In this document: one piece after another, positions 17,509-37,852 of the stretch
How the letters are laid out: each line of letters begins with the position of its first letter
Position numbering within the stretch: the first letter of the stretch is position 1
Assembly (NCBI GenBank): GCA_964649495.1
Contig: CAZYPR010000003.1
Span: forward strand, 17,879-81,878
Length of the DNA stretch: 64,000 nt
Reading direction: 5' to 3'
Source: an uncultured Clostridia bacterium
GTDB taxonomy: Bacteria; Acidobacteriota; Aminicenantia; JBFLYD01; JBBIMS01
Position numbers and translations under genes: made by a program
Notes under the pieces: model-generated
Told to the model about the DNA's origin: nothing
Database searches by the model: none
What the model saw: only the letters and a program-made list of their open reading frames with translations

Positions 17509-17895
17509 GTGAAAAAAAGCATAAAAAACAAATTTAAAAAAATAAGTATATCAGTTGTTTATCTATTTGGTTCTCACGCAACCGGGTTGGAACATGGCAA
17601 AAGTGACATTGACATAGGAGTTGTTTTTGAAAAGGACCATAGTAGAGATCATCTCAAAATATACACTCAACTCTATGAGCTATTCTCAGAAATTTTTCCT
17701 GATAAGGAAATAGACATAGTTTTTCTCGAGGAAGCACCTCTTTCACTTCAGTTTGAAGCTATAAAATATGGGAAAGTTTTATATGAAAAAAATGTCAAAA
17801 TAAGACTTGATTATGAAGAGAAAACAATGCTGAAATATGCTGATTTTTTGCCCTTAGAAGAGGAAATGAACAGGGTAATTATCGAAAGAATATGA
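17509..17895 (+). CDS. Minimal nucleotidyltransferase (MNT/MntA-like antitoxin of a type VII HepT-MNT toxin-antitoxin system)
   Basis: It contains LFGSHATGLEHGKSDIDIGVVF, the GSx9-13DxD nucleotidyltransferase motif. It has a GTG start and is translationally coupled to the downstream HepT (4-nt ATGA overlap). Confidence 0.7.
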   Translation: MKKSIKNKFKKISISVVYLFGSHATGLEHGKSDIDIGVVFEKDHSRDHLKIYTQLYELFSEIFPDKEIDIVFLEEAPLSLQFEAIKYGKVLYEKNVKIRLDYEEKTMLKYADFLPLEEEMNRVIIERI

Positions 17896-18350
17896 AAAGT
17901 TTGCCAGTAAATAAAAATACTATAATTAAGAGACTTGATGAGATCCAGCGTTGTGTGGAAAAGCTGAAAAAATTTGAAAAGATGTCCTTTGATGAGTTTA
18001 ATAGTGGAGAAAATTTTGCGGTATCTGAACATTATCTGAGAAGAGCCCTCGAAGCAGTCTTCGAAATTGGTGCTCATATTTTAGCAAGACTTCCTGGAGG
18101 GATAACATCCAGCTATAAAGAAATCGCAAAAAAACTGGGCGAATATAAAATTATTCCATCTCAATTTGCAAGGGATAGCCTTATTAAAATGGCTGGTTAT
18201 AGGAATAGGCTTGTTCATTTTTATTTTGAGGTATCAATAGAAGAGCTTTATGAGATAATAAGAAAAGATCTTAAAGATTTCGATGTATTTACTGAATTAA
18301 TAAAAAAATTTTTGCTTGAACCCGAGAAGTTTGGATTAAAAGTAGAGTAG
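17892..18350 (+). CDS. HepT-like toxin (DUF86, HEPN domain) of a type VII toxin-antitoxin pair
   Basis: It has the HEPN Rx4HxY motif RNRLVHFY near the C-terminus, is 152 aa, and follows MNT directly. Confidence 0.7.
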   Translation: MKSLPVNKNTIIKRLDEIQRCVEKLKKFEKMSFDEFNSGENFAVSEHYLRRALEAVFEIGAHILARLPGGITSSYKEIAKKLGEYKIIPSQFARDSLIKMAGYRNRLVHFYFEVSIEELYEIIRKDLKDFDVFTELIKKFLLEPEKFGLKVE

Positions 18351-18389
18351 TAAATTCTCATTTAATCAGGGCTATTTAAACTTAAGTTT

Positions 18390-18646
18390 GAGGAAGCGGA
18401 AGAAGTGCCAGAGTCTGTAAGGGTGGATGACAGTGACATTGCAAGGAAAGAGAGGAGATTAAGGTGGTAATCATGGAAAGGAGCTCCATGGATGGATTAG
18501 AGGGTGTCTCTCTCCCTCTCAACCTCCTGGTTAAGGTTTGCCCTGAAGGCAACTTATATGAGACCGGGAGAGAAGAGAGGATACTCCTTAGTGAGCCTAA
18601 AAGCTCAGCTCAGGTGGTGTTTCACCCTCTTCCGGTCTCTTTTTTA
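18390..18646 (+). ncRNA. Candidate structured small RNA or long structured 3' UTR of unknown family, ending in an intrinsic terminator
   Basis: A segment of about 250 nt is clearly more GC-rich than its AT-rich flanks. It contains several local hairpins (GAGGG-N9-CCCTC; TTGCC-CTGAA-GGCAA). A long-range stem pairs GAGACCGG (18560-18567) with CCGGTCTC (18632-18639), immediately followed by TTTTTTT at 18640-18646. The only ORF inside it is compositionally atypical. Confidence 0.25.
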
Positions 18647-19056
18647 GAGAAATTCGCAAGAAAATTTAAATAACATATTTTTTTTATCTTATCTATGAGT
18701 GGATGGAATGGCATATGGCTACTTGGGACGATAGAATGATTAGAAGTGGTGCTATTGATCATGATTATTTGAAACCTCATTTTCAAGATCCATTACAGGG
18801 AAGCACCTTTTTAGAGAATTCAACATACTGAGATAATTTCTTAAAAGGAGTCATGCCAATTCCTGAATGAAATCTTATTGTATTATACCGTATCTTTTAA
18901 GGACATATCTAACAGTTGATGACTTTTTTTTGTCTTCAGGAATGATGGGTTTAATATATCTCCTACTCCATGGCTTATTCTTACCCTGATTACTATGTCC
19001 TAACCAGAAAGAGGGAAATATTTGACTCTTTTTTATCTTTATTCCATTATAATTAT

Positions 19057-20382
19057 ATGCTTGAGATTGTTTCTTCAGGGATTGAAAAGGCTCTAAGATT
19101 CATAAAAGGTGAGGGTAAACTCACTGAGTCAAATCTCAATCAAGCTCTCCGAGATGTAAGGCTTTCCCTTCTCCAGGCTGATGTGAATCTCAATGTTGTC
19201 AAGGATTTTATTGAGAGGGTCAAGACAAAAGCCCTTGGAAAAGAAGTCATGGAAAGCTTTACCCCATACACTCTTCTTGTAAAGATTGTAAGAGATGAAC
19301 TGTTAGAACTCTTTGGAAAAGAGAGCAAGCCCCTTCAATTTTCAAGCAAAATTCCCACAATTTTTATGCTTGCTGGTCTTCAGGGCACAGGAAAGACAAC
19401 AACCGCAGGAAAACTCGCTCTCTATCTCAAAGGGAATGGATATTCTCCAATCCTTGCATCCATTGATATGAAAAGACCCGCAGCCAAGAGCCAGCTTAAA
19501 ACAATTGCCCAATCAATAGGAATACCTTTTTATGATGTTAAGGAAGGGAATTTGATAGAAATAGTTAGTGAGCTCCTCAAGTTTGTTAAAGATAGAGGTT
19601 TCAATCCATTGATTGTTGATACTGCAGGGAGACTCCATGTTGACGATGAATTGATGAAAGAGTTAAAAGAGTTAAAAAGTTTGCTTCAACCTTCAGAGAC
19701 AATTTACATAGCAGATTCCATGACAGGACAGGATGCAGTAAGATCAGCCAAGATATTTGACGAGAAAATCGGTATAACCTCAATTATTCTTACAAAACTT
19801 GATGGAGACCAGAGAGGAGGAGCAGCTCTTTCAATTGTTTCTGTCACAGGAAAGCCAATAAAATTTATTGGCATAGGAGAAAAACATACAGATTTTCAAC
19901 CTTTCTATCCTGATCGTCTTGTCTCCAGAATCCTGGGGATGGGAGATATCCTCACCCTTGTTGAGAAAGCAGAAAAAGAAATTGACATAAAAAAAGCTGA
20001 AGAGATGGAAAAGAAGCTCAGAAAGGAGGAATTTACCCTTGAAGATTTAAGAGAACAATTGAAAATGATTAGGAAGATGGGTTCTTTCAAAGATATTCTT
20101 GAGCATCTTCCCGCAATCGGACCATTGAAAGCTCTTTCAGGAATTGATATTGACGACAGGAGAATTATCCACATGATTGCAATAATAGATTCAATGACTC
20201 CAAAGGAGAGACTACATCCCGAGAAGATAGATGGAAGAAGAAAGCTTAGAATTGCAAGAGGTTCAGGAAGGCCTGTCCAAGAAGTAAATCAGCTGATTCG
20301 TAATTTCCTTGAAATGAAAAAGTTGATGAAAAAATCAAGCTTTAAAAGACTCTTCAGTCTTGGAAATTTTCTGAAGGGTTAA
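19057..20382 (+). CDS. ffh: Signal recognition particle protein Ffh
   Basis: It has the N-domain ALRFIKGEGKLTESNLNQALRDVRLSLLQADVNLNVVKDF and the G-domain GLQGTGKTTTAGKLA...DTAGR...TKLDGD, plus a Met-rich M-domain. The ORF track start at 18970 is an in-frame upstream extension that is not homologous to Ffh. Confidence 0.9.
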   Translation: MLEIVSSGIEKALRFIKGEGKLTESNLNQALRDVRLSLLQADVNLNVVKDFIERVKTKALGKEVMESFTPYTLLVKIVRDELLELFGKESKPLQFSSKIPTIFMLAGLQGTGKTTTAGKLALYLKGNGYSPILASIDMKRPAAKSQLKTIAQSIGIPFYDVKEGNLIEIVSELLKFVKDRGFNPLIVDTAGRLHVDDELMKELKELKSLLQPSETIYIADSMTGQDAVRSAKIFDEKIGITSIILTKLDGDQRGGAALSIVSVTGKPIKFIGIGEKHTDFQPFYPDRLVSRILGMGDILTLVEKAEKEIDIKKAEEMEKKLRKEEFTLEDLREQLKMIRKMGSFKDILEHLPAIGPLKALSGIDIDDRRIIHMIAIIDSMTPKERLHPEKIDGRRKLRIARGSGRPVQEVNQLIRNFLEMKKLMKKSSFKRLFSLGNFLKG

Positions 20383-25706: not shown

Positions 25707-26147
25707 TTATCTATTTGTCAATTCCTCTCTCAAGTAATTTTTTACCCTTTCCAAAAAACTTTTATACAAAGGTTCTGTTTCCTGAACGAATCTCTTTATA
25801 GAAGCCCATCTTATATCAAGATATTCGTGAGCAATAATATTTCTAAGAGACACCCATCGAGATATTTTCTCCATCTCTTCTTTATCGAATCCCTTTACAA
25901 GAGATAAAAATGAAATTATTTCTCTATAGGTTTCTGGAAGCTTTATATCTTCAGCGGTAAGTATTAGTTTAGATATATCAATGGAAGAATTCACTATATT
26001 TTCTATCCATCTTTCAACATCTCTTCTTTTACTTCTATTAATGTTGTATTCCTCCCAGCTGAGATCTCTAAAAAAAGAATAATCTTCTATCTCCTTTTCA
26101 ATAAAGTTTACATGTTTGATAATTCTTTCTCTCAGTTCTTCTTTCAT
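25707..26147 (-). CDS. HepT-like HEPN toxin (DUF86), second type VII toxin-antitoxin pair
   Basis: It has the Rx4HxY motif RNIIAHEY. It is 146 aa and overlaps the upstream MNT gene by 4 nt. Confidence 0.65.
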   Translation of the reverse strand: MKEELRERIIKHVNFIEKEIEDYSFFRDLSWEEYNINRSKRRDVERWIENIVNSSIDISKLILTAEDIKLPETYREIISFLSLVKGFDKEEMEKISRWVSLRNIIAHEYLDIRWASIKRFVQETEPLYKSFLERVKNYLREELTNR

Positions 26148-26560
26148 TTCTTTCCTCTTTCAAGAAAATTTTTAAAGAGCATTTCTCTGAAATCTATTGC
26201 TTCCGAGGTGATTACTTCCATAAATTTAATGTAAAGCCCCCTGTCATTTATCGCAAGTGGTGTACCTCTGATTGCACTCGCAGAAATACTCGCAGATGCT
26301 CTATTCATAACAATAAGTTCTACCTCCTTTTTTAATATTTTCTCAATATCAGACCATATTTTATCCTCAGCTTCGTAAAATATATCCTTTTCATACTCTA
26401 TCGGATGTCTTTCTTCAGGATAAAAGTATACTGCAATATCAACATCTGATAGATTATGGGTAGTCCCTTTAGCTTGTGAGCCAAACAAAAAGGCAAAGGC
26501 AATGTCCTTACGATTTCTAAAATACTCTCTCAACAATTCTAAATTTTTCTCTTCTATCAT
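26144..26560 (-). CDS. Minimal nucleotidyltransferase (MNT antitoxin)
   Basis: It contains FLFGSQAKGTTHNLSDVDIAVYF, the GSx10DxD motif, and is 138 aa. Confidence 0.7.
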   Translation of the reverse strand: MIEEKNLELLREYFRNRKDIAFAFLFGSQAKGTTHNLSDVDIAVYFYPEERHPIEYEKDIFYEAEDKIWSDIEKILKKEVELIVMNRASASISASAIRGTPLAINDRGLYIKFMEVITSEAIDFREMLFKNFLERGKK

Positions 26561-26634: not shown

Positions 26635-26727
26635 TGGCGGAGAGGGTGGGATTCGAACCCACGCTCCGACTCATCGTCGGAGAATCGCTTAGCAGGCGAC
26701 CCTGTTCAACCACTCCAGCACCTCTCC
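26635..26727 (-). tRNA. tRNA-Ser (anticodon GCU), class II with a long variable arm
   Basis: The minus-strand sequence is GGAGAGG-TG-...-GTCGC-CTGCTAA-GCGAT-(21-nt variable arm)-GTGGG-TTCGAAT-CCCAC-CCTCTCC-GCCA. The acceptor stem is 7 bp, the T-loop is TTCGAAT, the anticodon loop CTGCTAA carries GCT, and the CCA is encoded. Confidence 0.85.
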
Positions 26728-35342: not shown

Positions 35343-36933
35343 GCTCCTTTCCTGTTTTGTAAATATATTTATTCATCAAATACTGTTGTCCAATTTGAAG
35401 GATATTCTGGACAAGCCAGTATAAAACAAGACCACTGGGAAAATTCATAAAGAATATTGTAAGAAATACTGGCATTAGAAGCATGATTTTCTTTTGGGAT
35501 GGGTCTCCTCCAGTTGGAGTCATTTTCTGAATGATAAACTGGGTTATCCCCATTAAAATTGGTATTACATAGTAAGGATCTTTAAGGGATAGATCCTTAA
35601 TCCATAAGACAAAGGGTTTGTGCCTTATCTCCACTGCTCTTGAGAGAAGGTTGAAAAATCCCCAAAGGATTGGTAACTGAAGGAGCATTGGAAGGCATCC
35701 GCTTGCTGGATTTATTCCCTCTTCCTTGTAAATATTCATAAGCTCCATATTGAATTTTTTCCTCTGTTCTGGATCTGTCTTCATCTTCTTGTATTTTTCC
35801 CTCAAAGCTTTTATCCTTGGCTGGACTTTCTGCATTTTTGCCATTGAAACCATTGAAGTCCATGTGAGGGGGAAGAGAAAGACTTTTAAAATTATTGTGA
35901 GGATAATTATTGCAACACCATAATTGGGAATCATTTTGTAAAGCCAGTTAAGGATGATAAGGAGAAACTGAGCAATGAATCCGAACCAACCGAAGTTTAC
36001 AACCTTTTCCAGCTCTATTTTCTCCTTCCCTAAAAAAGTCTTTTTCAAAGTTCCAAATTCCTTTGGACCTAAATAGATGGCAGATGGATTTGAAACAACA
36101 ATATAATTTAAAGGCTCACCTTTCGGGACATCAATTTTTTCAAACAATATCCTTGATGTTTGGGCAGAGATGGCAATAATTGTAAAGTAATTTGTCTCGT
36201 AAGCAGACCATTTAAGAAGTCCTCTAAATATTTCTCCTGGATTAAATTTTTTGTCCTCTTTCCTAACAAGATTCTTCCCATCCCAGTAAACAATGTTGAA
36301 CTTGTCCATTCTCTTCTTCATCTCCTCCGGAGAGAATCTTCCAATCCTTGGACCAATATAAATGGAGGGAGAGATTGGCTCCCCCTCTTTTATTATTGAA
36401 ACCTCATGCTCAAAGAGGTATGAATTTCCGTAAAAGACAAACTTTTTCAAAACAGTTAGGTTCTCCCAAGAATATTTAAGAATCAATTCTTTTTTCTCGT
36501 TTTCTCTTAAATTAATCTCTGTCACAGAGGGAAGGAAAAAGGAATTGTTTAAAAATAAGATGGAGTCATCGAGTTTCAGATTTAAAGGGAAGGGAGCATT
36601 GGGAGGAATTTCAGGAATTAACTCCAGATCAGATCTCTTTTCATCTTTATATTTTTTCAGGACAAAGCTCTTCAAAACCCCTCCCCTGTTGGAAATGAGA
36701 GCCCTGAAAAGAGGCGTTTCAACTCTTACAATTTTTTCTTCTATATCCTTTGTCCAAGGAGGTATTTCTACTTCTATTTTTTTCAGAGGGACTTCTGAAT
36801 CAACAACTTTTTTTTCAACCGAGATTTTTTCAGGCTGAATCTTTTGAGGAGAAGGAGGTGGAGAAATGAACTGGTAATATATCAGTATTATGATAAATGA
36901 AATTGCAAGGGCTAAAATTATTCTCTTTTCCAT
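35311..36933 (-). CDS. yidC: Membrane protein insertase YidC
   Basis: An N-terminal TM segment is followed by a large periplasmic domain and the conserved C-terminal 5-TM core (FGWFGFIAQFLLIILNWLYK...NPASGCLPMLLQLPILWGFF...). It is 540 aa. Confidence 0.85.
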   Translation of the reverse strand: MEKRIILALAISFIIILIYYQFISPPPSPQKIQPEKISVEKKVVDSEVPLKKIEVEIPPWTKDIEEKIVRVETPLFRALISNRGGVLKSFVLKKYKDEKRSDLELIPEIPPNAPFPLNLKLDDSILFLNNSFFLPSVTEINLRENEKKELILKYSWENLTVLKKFVFYGNSYLFEHEVSIIKEGEPISPSIYIGPRIGRFSPEEMKKRMDKFNIVYWDGKNLVRKEDKKFNPGEIFRGLLKWSAYETNYFTIIAISAQTSRILFEKIDVPKGEPLNYIVVSNPSAIYLGPKEFGTLKKTFLGKEKIELEKVVNFGWFGFIAQFLLIILNWLYKMIPNYGVAIIILTIILKVFLFPLTWTSMVSMAKMQKVQPRIKALREKYKKMKTDPEQRKKFNMELMNIYKEEGINPASGCLPMLLQLPILWGFFNLLSRAVEIRHKPFVLWIKDLSLKDPYYVIPILMGITQFIIQKMTPTGGDPSQKKIMLLMPVFLTIFFMNFPSGLVLYWLVQNILQIGQQYLMNKYIYKTGKEHGKRVQRKKP

Positions 36934-37149
36934 TTATTCTGGAACCTCATCAATCCCACCAGGATGGAAGGGATTACACTTTAAAATTCTTTTGACTCCA
37001 AGAAAAACTCCCTTTAAAACTCCATGTCTTTCAATTGCCTGATATGTGTAAGTGGAGCATGGGGGATAAAATCTACAGTTTGTGCCAAGAATGGGAGAGA
37101 TAAAAAACTTATAAAATCTCAAAAAAAATAAAGCGAGTTTCTTTACCAT
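36934..37149 (-). CDS. yidD: Membrane protein insertion efficiency factor YidD
   Basis: It contains [17 protein letters not shown]...NPFHPGGID, the YidD signature, and is 71 aa. Confidence 0.8.
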
Positions 37150-37153
37150 AAAT

Positions 37154-37447
37154 TCAGAAATTACCTTCCTTTTTCAATCTTGAAAAGTTGCTCAACAGCT
37201 CCTCAATCAAAACATTCTCAGGAAAAAAGCTAACATCTCTCAATGGAAATATTATTATATCATAACTTTCAGGAAAAATTTCTTTGTTTTTTCTAAAAAT
37301 CTCCTTATAAATTCTTTTAATCCTGTTCCTTACAACTGCTTTTCCAACCTTAGAAGAAACATTAATAACGATTCTTTTTAATCCTTTTTTATTTGGAAAA
37401 GCAAATATTTTCATGTTTTCACTTTTCACTTTTTTCCCTTTTGTCAA
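37154..37447 (-). CDS. rnpA: Ribonuclease P protein component
   Basis: It is basic, with [14 protein letters not shown] (RNRxKR RnpA motif). It is positioned between rpmH and yidD. Confidence 0.75.
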
Positions 37448-37502
37448 AATTTCAACAATCTCTTTTTTTTTAAAGTCCTTTCTTCTTTTCTAAGAGTTTC
37501 TT

Positions 37503-37640
37503 TCATGAAGGTGTGAGAACCTTTCTTCCCTTTTTTCTCCTCCTTTTAAGAACCTCTCTCCCCCCTTTTGTTTTCATTCTTGCTCTGAAACCGTGGGTTT
37601 TTCTCCTCCTTCTTTTGTTGGGCTGAAATGTTCTCTTCAT
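37503..37640 (-). CDS. rpmH: 50S ribosomal protein L34
   Basis: The minus strand translates to [45 protein letters not shown] (45 aa), the canonical L34. It is not in the ORF track because it is under 60 aa. Confidence 0.85.
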
Positions 37641-37852
37641 TCCTTAACCTCTCTATTTAAGGGAAATTAAATAAAATTAAATCATAAAATCGAAAGAATT
37701 TCAATTCATTCAAAGCTCTTTTTAGTGCACATTTTCATTTTTTAAGGTCTCTTCCCAAATCATGGCTTTCAAAGCTAATTCACGAACAATTAAAACATGT
37801 TGACAAATACTGAAATTTCTGAAAGAATATTATTCTTTGAAAGGAGGCAATT

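What the first reader, a model, noticed from the sequence alone, without database searches (positions are those of the whole stretch)
18351..19056. Intergenic gap of about 700 bp upstream of ffh containing a roughly 250-nt GC-enriched structured element that ends in an intrinsic terminator
Intergenic spacers in this window are mostly under 150 bp; this one is 706 bp. Positions about 18390-18646 are visibly GC-richer than the flanks. They contain several stem-loops and a long-range helix, GAGACCGG (18560-18567) with CCGGTCTC (18632-18639), followed by seven T residues. This is the hallmark of a transcribed, terminated small RNA or a structured 3' UTR of the upstream HepT/MNT operon. The only ORF inside (18464-18673) reads through the terminator and has atypical composition. 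The proximity to ffh raises the possibility of an SRP-RNA-like or other housekeeping ncRNA, but no canonical SRP, RNase P or tmRNA motif could be confirmed by eye.
Basis: seen in the sequence. Interest (0 to 1): 0.6.

Follow-up and report, generated by a model that had tools for sequence, protein, structure and literature searches.

The report
Decayed IS110 transposon with bridge-RNA relic
The GC-rich "structured element" upstream of ffh is the broken remains of an IS110-family insertion sequence lying on the opposite strand: its guide ("bridge") RNA region plus a scrap of its transposase gene. It is an ordinary mobile-element relic, not a housekeeping RNA.

Summary
In detail: a 706-bp gap, a GC-rich stretch (0.49 against 0.37 for the window), a 13-bp helix and a T-run.

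An exhaustive protein search showed that the 69-aa ORF is the tail of 350-470-aa antisense ORFs. These span full-length IS110-family elements, which encode a DEDD_Tnp_IS110 + Transposase_20 transposase.

On the minus strand, window 18641-18483 is about 87% identical to the left non-coding end of those elements. That is where IS110-group elements encode their bridge RNA. A covariance model built without the window sequence hits it at 115 bits (E 3e-31).

Window 18469-18381 holds only transposase residues 62-70 and 76-95, in two frames. The rest of the gene and the right end are missing.

Across eight family members the structure is 92% paired and shows compensatory changes. The 3' side of the first loop (NAAGGAG) tracks each element's right flank.

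The window copy has changed at 10 positions that are invariant in all the others, including a deletion in the donor-guide motif. It is therefore probably dead. Seven close relatives of this genome lack the sequence upstream of ffh.

The parts
18376..18694 (-). Whole IS110-family remnant: complete left end (LE), then a transposase start fused to a short internal fragment. It is truncated about 30 nt from the HepT stop. There is no right end.
   Evidence: DNA alignment to full-length copies L163-L166; blastx
18483..18641 (-). Region homologous to the LE-encoded non-coding RNA (bridge-RNA type) of the family.
   Evidence: Covariance model R1, built from 7 non-window sequences, matches full length (1-165) at 114.8 bits, E 3.1e-31. 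It has no hit in 1.34 Mb of other loci. Identity to L163 is 86.7%.
18560..18639 (-). First stem-loop domain. It encloses a 10x10-nt internal loop and the apical stem UGAGCU/AGGCUCA (18592-18607).
   Evidence: RNAalifold and pair counts on 8 sequences. In the window copy P2 is broken at 18579-18580.
18582..18591 (-). 3' side of the first internal loop, CUAAGGAGUA: a right-target-guide-like segment, complementary to CTCCTTAG.
   Evidence: In relatives the bases 5' of AGGAG match the bases that follow CTCCT at the right junction.
18608..18617 (-). 5' side of the first internal loop, CCACCUGAGC: a left-target-guide-like segment.
   Evidence: Alignment A3. In relatives the last bases (NCCU) have the same sense as the left flank NCCT. 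This rests on inspection only.
18538..18552 (-). Second hairpin (UUGCC UUCAG GGCAA). Immediately 5' of it, at about 18550-18553, is the site of a window-specific 6-nt gap in alignment A3. The gap removes the five family-invariant bases GAUUG of the conserved (A/G)GUUGAUUG motif, which is left-donor-guide-like and has the same sense as the right-end sequence AGTTGACT.
   Evidence: helix 4: 2 pairs with compensatory changes; 5 family-invariant columns deleted.
18514..18530 (-). Family-invariant box CCAGGAGGUUGAGAGGG. AGGAG is complementary to the CTCCT shared by both junctions. It is a candidate right-donor guide.
   Evidence: Alignments A3/A4. The assignment is inferred.
18642..18694 (-). 5' part of the LE, with -35/-10-like boxes (TTTAAA, 18 nt, TAAAAA) just upstream of P1. 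The TATTTA box pairs with a TTGACT -35 in the right end of intact, circularised copies. The window copy carries a 6-nt insertion here.
   Evidence: Sequence comparison. The promoter assignment is inferred; the promoter scan found nothing at 9 of 12 matches or better on this strand here.
18468..18487 (-). Remnant of the transposase RBS (GGAGC 18487-18483; GGAGG in all other copies) and of the start ATGATTA (18474-18468). The start is fused by a deletion of about 177 nt to codon 62.
18381..18469 (-). Transposase fragments: residues 62-70 (YHLNLLSFL, 18469-18443) and residues 76-95 (NVTVIHPYRLWHFFRFLKLK, 18440-18381), in different frames.
   Evidence: blastx against the transposases of L163-L166. 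There is no other IS110 transposase fragment in the window (tblastn).
18464..18673 (+). The 69-aa ORF: C-terminal relic of the element-spanning antisense ('hed'-like) ORF of this IS family.
   Evidence: phmmer: residues 7-69 match the C-termini of P0001 (83%, E 7e-23) and P0002 (78%). In 6 of 7 family members the antisense frame is stop-free for 449-486 codons.
18695..18702 (+). Decayed Shine-Dalgarno-like insertion target, ATGAGTGG (family junction: AGGAGGTG). ATG codons follow at 18703 and 18708.
   Evidence: Comparison with the left junctions of 8 insertions
18703..18831 (+). Orphan 42-aa ORF. It may be the decayed start of the gene whose RBS the IS targeted.
   Evidence: The only match is itself (P0127, 100% identical, 83.7-kb contig). 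No Pfam match.
19022..19050 (+). ffh promoter-like site (TTGACT, 17 nt, CATTAT). This is the first sequence shared with relatives.
   Evidence: DNA similarity to L002-L004 and L083-L086 begins at 19014-19020.

Best explanation
An IS110-family (IS110-group) insertion sequence once inserted, in antisense orientation, at the Shine-Dalgarno sequence of a gene upstream of ffh. It later lost transposase codons 3-61, everything beyond codon 95, and its right end.

What remains at 18376-18694, on the minus strand, is the left non-coding end. In intact relatives this end encodes a bridge-type guide RNA of about 160 nt.

In intact elements that RNA has a first stem-loop with a large internal loop. The 3' side of the loop (NAAGGAG) pairs with the target (CTCCT + 2-3 nt). 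A second region carries GUUGAUU, which matches the element's own right end (GTTGACT). On the published IS621 model, the RNA holds target and donor together for the DEDD recombinase.

The window copy has no recombinase and no right end, so it cannot move. It has also mutated at positions that are invariant in the family, so its RNA is most likely a non-functional relic.

Shown here: homology, strand, truncation, family structure with covariation, guide-flank correspondence, and decay.

Inferred: the order of events, the promoter assignments, and loss of function.
For: (1) Protein hits. The 69-aa ORF matches the C-termini of 351-472-aa database ORFs. On the opposite strand of P0002's contig is a 395-aa ORF with PF01548 DEDD_Tnp_IS110 (E 2.5e-21) and PF02371 Transposase_20 (E 5.9e-22). 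That ORF matches the IS621 transposase in PDB entry 8WT6 (E 4e-13).

(2) DNA homology. The window's minus strand aligns with the region directly upstream of that transposase in L163-L166 and, more distantly, in L167-L178.

(3) Independent model. A covariance model built without the window sequence scores 114.8 bits, E 3e-31, on the minus strand at 18641-18483. It has no hit in 1.34 Mb of control loci.

(4) Transposase fragments. Residues 62-70 and 76-95 are present in two frames.

(5) Structure. 91.6% of cells are paired against 32-52% when partners are slid. Seven pairs show compensatory changes.

(6) Guide-flank correspondence. Cognate RNA and right flank match at 1.73 of 2 variable positions, against 0.78 for non-cognate pairs. 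Examples: L163 AUAGGAG with CTCCTAT; L177 UAAAGGAG with CTCCTTTA; L178 AAAAAGGAG with CTCCTTTT.

(7) Fit to the published description of IS110-group bridge RNAs: a long LE upstream of the recombinase, stem-loops with internal loops, a 3' loop side pairing 4-7 nt of the top strand, and a promoter rebuilt across the RE-LE junction (PMC11208160, read). Here the right end finishes in TTGACT, and a -10-like box lies 17 nt into the LE in three subfamilies.

(8) Decay. Ten columns invariant in the other 7 sequences are changed or deleted in the window copy.

(9) Locus history. Seven relatives with 87-90% identical Ffh share DNA only from 19014-19020 onward.
Against: No expression data exist, so a residual minus-strand transcript cannot be excluded or shown.

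Only 8 distinct RNA sequences were available, so covariation support is modest, and shuffle controls can be exceeded by related sequences without any structure.

The second (donor-binding) loop could not be drawn unambiguously. UUAACC can pair with either of two GGUUGA copies.

The exact core dinucleotide within the shared CTCCT is unresolved, because no empty site or circle junction was available.

Rfam 15 has no matching family even for intact copies. 'Bridge RNA' therefore rests on position, architecture and guide complementarity, not on a curated model.

About 320 bp of the gap (18700-19020) remain unexplained.
Confidence: 0.92

Rival explanations
1. A + strand small RNA, or a structured 3' UTR of the MNT-HepT operon that ends in an intrinsic terminator.
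For: The 92-nt hairpin with a 13-bp GC-rich closing stem is very stable (z -4.9). It is followed by six U and lies about 290 nt downstream of the HepT stop on the same strand. It could stop some read-through by accident.
Against: The whole stretch is homologous, in the opposite orientation, to the left end of IS110-family elements found in unrelated contexts without HepT. The covariance model scores 114.8 bits on the minus strand and 29.9 on the + strand. The full element on the + strand folds no better than shuffles (z -0.97). The 54-nt 'loop' is not terminator-like, and the scan did not call it. There is no Rfam hit for SRP, RNase P, tmRNA, 6S or anything else. The sequence is absent upstream of ffh in seven close relatives.
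Confidence: 0.05
2. An orphan but still functional bridge RNA. It would be transcribed from the minus strand and used in trans by recombinase from full-length copies elsewhere in the same genome.
For: The RNA region is full length relative to the model (1-165). Most helices are intact, and the second hairpin is kept by a compensating C-to-A change at 18538. Logan contigs of the same sample break at 18417, inside the transposase fragment, which suggests further copies in that sample. Solo copies of an IS110-associated small RNA are reported for ISPpu9/Ssr9 (PMC12288879 abstract).
Against: Ten family-invariant positions are lost. Among them are 5 nt of the GUUGAUUG donor-guide motif and two pairs of helix P2. 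The right end that supplies the -35 box is missing, and no promoter-like site is found upstream on the minus strand. The flanking target is also mutated (CTC-AT instead of CTC-CT).
Confidence: 0.08
3. A real small protein gene: the 69-aa ORF 18464-18673.
For: The ORF is open, and it has protein-level matches at 78-83% identity.
Against: Those matches are the last ~60 residues of element-spanning antisense ORFs of 351-472 aa, so the window keeps only the tail. There is no Pfam match. The frame upstream is broken: the +1 frame carries the preceding homologous segment FEEAEEVPESVRVDDSDIA. The gene caller of the source record did not call this ORF (no self-hit).
Confidence: 0.02

Closest known systems
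IS110-group bridge RNA / bridge recombinase, type example IS621 (Durrant et al. 2024, PMC11208160; Hiraizumi et al. 2024, PMC11208158; 'seekRNA', PMC11187229)
   Same: The RNA is encoded in a long left non-coding end directly upstream of a DEDD (PF01548 + PF02371) recombinase. It forms stem-loops with large internal loops. The 3' side of the first loop is complementary to the target top strand. A 5'-side motif has the same sense as the element's right end. A TTGACT at the very end of the right end would form a promoter with a -10-like box in the LE after circularisation. The family transposase matches the IS621 transposase in the PDB.
   Different: There is no sequence or Rfam-level similarity to a curated RNA family. 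No separate 5' stem-loop is evident. Target and donor share 5 nt (CTCCT), not an obvious 2-nt core. The donor-binding loop is not resolved here. The window copy is a truncated, mutated relic without recombinase or right end.
IS900 of Mycobacterium avium subsp. paratuberculosis (IS110 family) with its 'hed' ORF (PMC8141618; Doran et al. 1997, cited there)
   Same: The relatives of the window remnant keep an antisense ORF across the whole element. They insert at translation initiation signals: CTCCT, the complement of AGGAG, lies 7 nt from the start codon of a gene on the other strand. The window's 69-aa ORF is the tail of such an ORF.
   Different: The hosts are different phyla (Aminicenantes-like and other uncultured lineages). 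Direct sequence relatedness to IS900 was not tested. Here the host gene keeps an SD at the left junction.
Solo IS110-associated small-RNA copies (ssr9 of ISPpu9, Pseudomonas putida; PMC12288879)
   Same: An IS110-family non-coding RNA gene is present without an adjacent transposase gene.
   Different: ssr9 lies downstream of the transposase, and its solo copies are reported as intact. Here the RNA region is upstream, is attached to transposase debris, and is mutated at invariant positions.
Rho-independent terminator / 3'-UTR-derived sRNA
   Same: A GC-rich 13-bp stem is followed by a run of six U on the + strand.
   Different: The stem closes a 54-nt structured insert. The feature is inherited from the IS in antisense orientation and is conserved for reasons unrelated to HepT.

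Membership tests
IS110-family insertion sequence (as an intact element) | Encodes a DEDD transposase (PF01548 DEDD_Tnp_IS110 + PF02371 Transposase_20) | tested here: not met
   The window holds only residues 62-70 and 76-95 of about 395, in two frames. Full-length homologues L163-L166 have both domains.
IS110-family insertion sequence (as an intact element) | Both ends present (long LE, short RE ending ...TAGTTGACTCCT in this subfamily) | tested here: not met
   The LE is present and alignable. No RE is present: homology stops at about 18381, 30 nt from the HepT stop.
IS110-family insertion sequence (remnant) | DNA homology to the LE plus the 5' coding region of elements that encode the DEDD transposase | tested here: met
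   86.7% identity to L163 over the RNA region. Covariance model: 114.8 bits, E 3e-31.
Bridge RNA (IS110 group) | Encoded in the LE, upstream of and on the same strand as the recombinase gene | tested here: met
   Minus strand 18641-18483 ends 9 nt before the remnant ATG at 18474. The position is the same in all full-length relatives.
Bridge RNA (IS110 group) | [quoted passage not shown] | tested here: met
   P1, P2 and the apical stem enclose a 10x10 internal loop. 91.6% of cells are paired against 32-52% when partners are slid. Seven pairs carry double changes. Only 8 sequences were available. The fold of the second loop is ambiguous.
Bridge RNA (IS110 group) | Guides in the first loop are complementary to the insertion target and covary with it | tested here: met
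   In relatives: cognate 1.73 of 2 against non-cognate 0.78 of 2 at the variable positions, and 7-9 nt of contiguous complementarity. For the window copy itself the right flank is lost, so this cannot be tested there.
Bridge RNA (IS110 group) | Guides in the second loop match the element's own ends (donor) | tested here: inconclusive
   [quoted passage not shown] The donor is invariant in the family, so no covariation is possible. In the window this motif is partly deleted.
Bridge RNA (IS110 group) | The RNA is expressed and bound by the recombinase, and is required for recombination | not testable with these tools
   No transcriptome or biochemistry was available.
SRP RNA / RNase P RNA / tmRNA / 6S RNA or any Rfam family | Match to the curated covariance model | tested here: not met
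   No hit at gathering score in the region. Only chance-level hits (E 1.1-2.5) at a permissive threshold.
Intrinsic terminator of the MNT-HepT operon | Short GC-rich hairpin (loop 3-8 nt) directly followed by a U-run | tested here: inconclusive
   The 13-bp stem and U6 are present. The enclosed 54 nt exceed the scan's definition, and the site was not called.
IS900-type 'hed' antisense ORF | Stop-free ORF on the strand opposite the transposase, spanning the element | tested here: met
   In relatives: 449-486 codons in 6 of 7. There are zero TTA or CTA codons and 0-1 TCA codons, while host genes use these for 22% of Leu and 28% of Ser. The window keeps only the last 69 codons.

The most novel reading that the evidence does not exclude
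The relic may belong to an undescribed IS110 subfamily, found in Aminicenantes-like and other uncultured bacteria, with two linked properties. First, the bridge RNA's target loop reads the Shine-Dalgarno motif (RNA NAAGGAG against DNA CTCCTTA). Second, codon avoidance keeps a whole-element antisense ORF open. Together these would give an RNA-guided explanation for the long-known habit of IS900-type elements of inserting at translation initiation signals so that host signals drive 'hed'. For the window itself, the most novel reading not excluded is that the orphan RNA is still made and used in trans.
Probability: 0.4. Interest if true: 0.5.

Novelty: new member of a known kind. Interest (0 to 1): 0.3.

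Why it matters
For genome annotation, this shows that a conspicuous 'structured, GC-rich intergenic element with a terminator' can be a mobile-element relic read from the wrong strand. The gap upstream of ffh is a rearrangement scar, not a regulatory or housekeeping RNA locus.

It also exposes a database artefact. Gene callers record the antisense ORF of these IS elements as a 350-470-aa 'protein' and miss the transposase.

The IS family behind the relic is a possible source of bridge recombinases with a naturally SD-directed guide. That may interest people mining such systems. It is a side product of this work, not a property of the window's dead copy.

Tried and rejected
- Rfam at gathering and at permissive thresholds, on the window and on intact copies: nothing.
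Seven relatives with 87-90% identical Ffh share DNA only from about 19017 onward, and each has a different upstream neighbour.
- tblastx of the gap against all relatives' flanks: no shared coding remnant.
- BLAST against plasmid and phage collections, two viral DNA-pattern scans and one viral protein scan: nothing.
- Word-indexed protein search with the 69-aa ORF: nothing. Only the exhaustive phmmer search found the homologues.
- MITE hypothesis, from the 9-nt inverted repeat TAATCAGGG/CCCTGATTA at 18363 and 18984: rejected, because about one such pair is expected by chance in 800 nt.
- Partial duplication of the ffh promoter or 5' end inside the gap (repeats D3, D6, D7): matches too short to distinguish from chance, not pursued.
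- The second large apparent gap at 36933-37780: it holds short minus-strand ORFs on inspection (I read them as rpmH-rnpA-yidD-like, not tested) and is not an analogue.
- The 42-aa ORF 18703-18831: only a self hit.

Full report
**Observation**

The window is a 37%-GC genome. Its Ffh is 87-90% identical to Ffh of MAGs labelled Candidatus Aminicenantes.

MNT (17509-17895) and HepT (17892-18350) are confirmed by Pfam. ffh starts at 19057. The gap is therefore 706 bp, and it is the largest real spacer in the window.

Positions 18390-18646 are 48.6% GC. Only 0.3% of equally long windows reach this, and all the others are coding.

The helix is real and 13 bp long: 18560-18572 with 18627-18639. It is followed by six T. 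The 92-nt hairpin is far more stable than shuffles (z -4.9). The whole element on the + strand is not (z -0.97). The minus strand folds better (z -2.59).

- Rfam gives nothing at gathering score and only chance-level hits at a permissive threshold.
- The proposed covariation test on orthologous regions cannot be done. Three genomes and four metagenome contigs with 87-90% identical Ffh share DNA with the window only from 19014-19020 onward, that is, from the ffh promoter-like TTGACT...CATTAT.
- Upstream of that point every relative has a different neighbour.
- The gap is therefore lineage-specific and sits at a synteny breakpoint.
- Two Logan contigs that are 100% identical to the window end at 18417 and restart at 18976. 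This hints at repeated or polymorphic sequence between those points.

**The break in the case**

A word-indexed protein search with the 69-aa ORF found nothing. An exhaustive phmmer search of 1.84 billion representatives matched residues 7-69 to the C-termini of 'proteins' of 351-472 aa: P0001 at 83% identity (E 7e-23) and P0002 at 78%. These have odd composition and no Pfam domain.

P0002's contig is 1447 nt long. On its other strand it carries a 395-aa ORF with DEDD_Tnp_IS110 and Transposase_20 domains. That ORF matches the IS621 transposase of PDB 8WT6. Sources name its homologues 'IS110 family transposase'. The database 'proteins' are therefore antisense ORFs of an IS110-family element.

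**What lies in the window**

Read on the minus strand, window about 18690-18480 aligns with the non-coding region directly upstream of the transposase start in four full-length copies from different samples (L163-L166). It also aligns with more distant family members: L167-L176, where one transposase occurs in several different flanking contexts (five distinct left flanks and five distinct right flanks), L177 and L178.

A covariance model built from the seven non-window sequences hits the window once: minus strand 18641-18483, full length, 114.8 bits, E 3e-31. It finds nothing in 1.34 Mb of unrelated loci.

Downstream on that strand come, in order:
- a mutated RBS;
- the start ATGATTA (18474-18468);
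- a deletion of about 177 nt;
- transposase residues 62-70 and 76-95, in two frames.

Homology ends at about 18381, 30 nt from the HepT stop. There is no right end and no other transposase fragment in the window.

**Why this is a bridge-type RNA region**

Published work describes IS110-group elements as follows. They have a long left end upstream of the recombinase. That end encodes an RNA with stem-loops containing internal loops. The first loop pairs with the target and the second with the donor. The promoter is rebuilt across the RE-LE junction of the excised circle (PMC11208160; PMC11208158).

In the eight-sequence alignment the consensus fold has:
- a short stem P2;
- a 10x10-nt internal loop;
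- an apical stem;
- a second hairpin.

91.6% of cells pair, against 32-52% when partners are slid by 1-3 columns. Seven pairs show compensatory changes.

All insertions have the left junction ...C(C/A)CTCCT|AG... and the right junction ...TAGTTGACTCCT|T(A/T)....

The 3' side of the first loop is NAAGGAG. The bases 5' of AGGAG track the bases that follow CTCCT at each element's right junction: AUAGGAG with CTCCTAT, AAAGGAG with CTCCTTT, UAAAGGAG with CTCCTTTA, AAAAAGGAG with CTCCTTTT, and UUAAGGAG with CTCCTTA. Cognate pairs match at 1.73 of 2 variable positions, non-cognate pairs at 0.78.

The conserved (A/G)GUUGAUU before the second hairpin has the same sense as the right-end sequence AGTTGACT, as a left-donor guide should. 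The right end finishes in TTGACT, and a -10-like box lies 17 nt into the left end in three subfamilies.

The fold of the donor loop itself stayed ambiguous. The core within the shared CTCCT is unresolved.

**State of the window copy**

Ten columns that are invariant in the other seven sequences are changed in the window:
- 18614, in the 5' loop side;
- 18579-18580, which break two P2 pairs;
- five bases of GUUGAUUG, deleted;
- 18538;
- 18483, in the RBS.

In addition the left end has a 6-nt insertion, and the junction reads CTC-AT instead of CTC-CT. With no recombinase, no right end and no promoter-like site upstream, the element is immobile. Its RNA is most likely a relic.

**The 69-aa ORF and a side observation**

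Six of seven family members keep the codon-aligned antisense frame open for 449-486 codons. Their transposase genes contain no TTA or CTA codons and at most one TCA codon. Host genes in the window use these codons for 22% of Leu and 28% of Ser.

The family also inserts at CTCCT(TA), the complement of the Shine-Dalgarno motif, 7 nt from the start codon of a gene on the other strand.

Both traits recall IS900, an IS110-family element with an element-spanning 'hed' ORF that 'targets translation initiation signals' (PMC8141618). No paper in the searchable library links IS900 to bridge RNAs.

The window's ORF 18464-18673 is the last 69 codons of such an antisense ORF. The preceding homologous segment sits in another frame.

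**Rest of the gap**

- 18695-18702 (ATGAGTGG) looks like the decayed SD target. It is followed by ATGs at 18703 and 18708.
- The 42-aa ORF 18703-18831 has no homologue except itself.
- About 320 bp up to the ffh promoter remain unexplained, as does the contig break at 18976.

**Verdict**

It is wrong about strand, identity and function. The feature is a decayed IS110-family element with its bridge-RNA region: a new member of a known kind, of low to moderate interest.

Noticed in passing
L163 1-1447; L164 184-1600; L165 3975-5401; L166 1-1380; L167 2736-4215; L178 1-1400: The IS110-family relatives keep a stop-free antisense frame of 449-486 codons across the whole element. Their transposase genes have zero TTA or CTA codons and 0-1 TCA codons, although the host uses these often. 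L177 has lost the open frame (8 stops). This resembles the 'hed' ORF of IS900. Gene callers record this antisense ORF as the protein and miss the transposase (P0001-P0004, P0006).
   Followed up: partly
L167 2721-2736, L168, L169, L171, L173, L177 left junctions; right junctions after ...TTGACTCCT: This IS subfamily inserts at CTCCT(TA), the complement of the Shine-Dalgarno motif TAAGGAG, 7 nt from the start codon of a gene on the opposite strand. The RNA loop segment NAAGGAG is complementary to that site. The library holds no paper linking IS900-type targeting of translation signals to bridge RNAs.
   Followed up: partly
L169, L173, L174, L175, L176: The same left flank occurs with different right flanks and vice versa: the L169, L174 and L175 right flanks differ while the left flank is shared, and L169 and L173 share a right flank with different left flanks. 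This means either recombination between IS copies or assembly chimeras across the repeat.
   Followed up: no
window 18417 and 18976: Two Logan contigs of SRR6344962 that are identical to the window end at 18417 (inside the transposase fragment) and restart at 18976. The first break fits further IS copies in the sample. The second, about 40 nt before similarity to relatives begins, is unexplained.
   Followed up: partly
window 19014-19056 and L002-L004, L083-L086: The point just upstream of the ffh promoter is a synteny breakpoint in every close relative examined, and each has a different upstream neighbour. Those read were a minus-strand gene with no identified domain (L002), another minus-strand ORF (L003) and a + strand ORF that reads like an ABC-transporter C-terminal fragment (L004). 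None of these was checked against a domain library.
   Followed up: partly
window 18378-18389: A perfect 12-nt palindrome AAACTTAAGTTT sits exactly where homology to the transposase gene ends.
   Followed up: no
window 25707-26560 and L082 6732-7585: A second MNT/HepT-type pair (NTP_transf_2 + HepT-like) lies on the minus strand about 6 kb downstream of ffh, next to a tRNA gene at 26638-26727.
   Followed up: no
L167 about 2840-2870 (RNA apical loop): The L167-type elements carry a 27-nt insertion with two small hairpins (CCGCCTAAGCGG, TCCACACCGTGGA) in the apical loop of the first stem-loop. This shows that the apical loop tolerates insertions.
   Followed up: no
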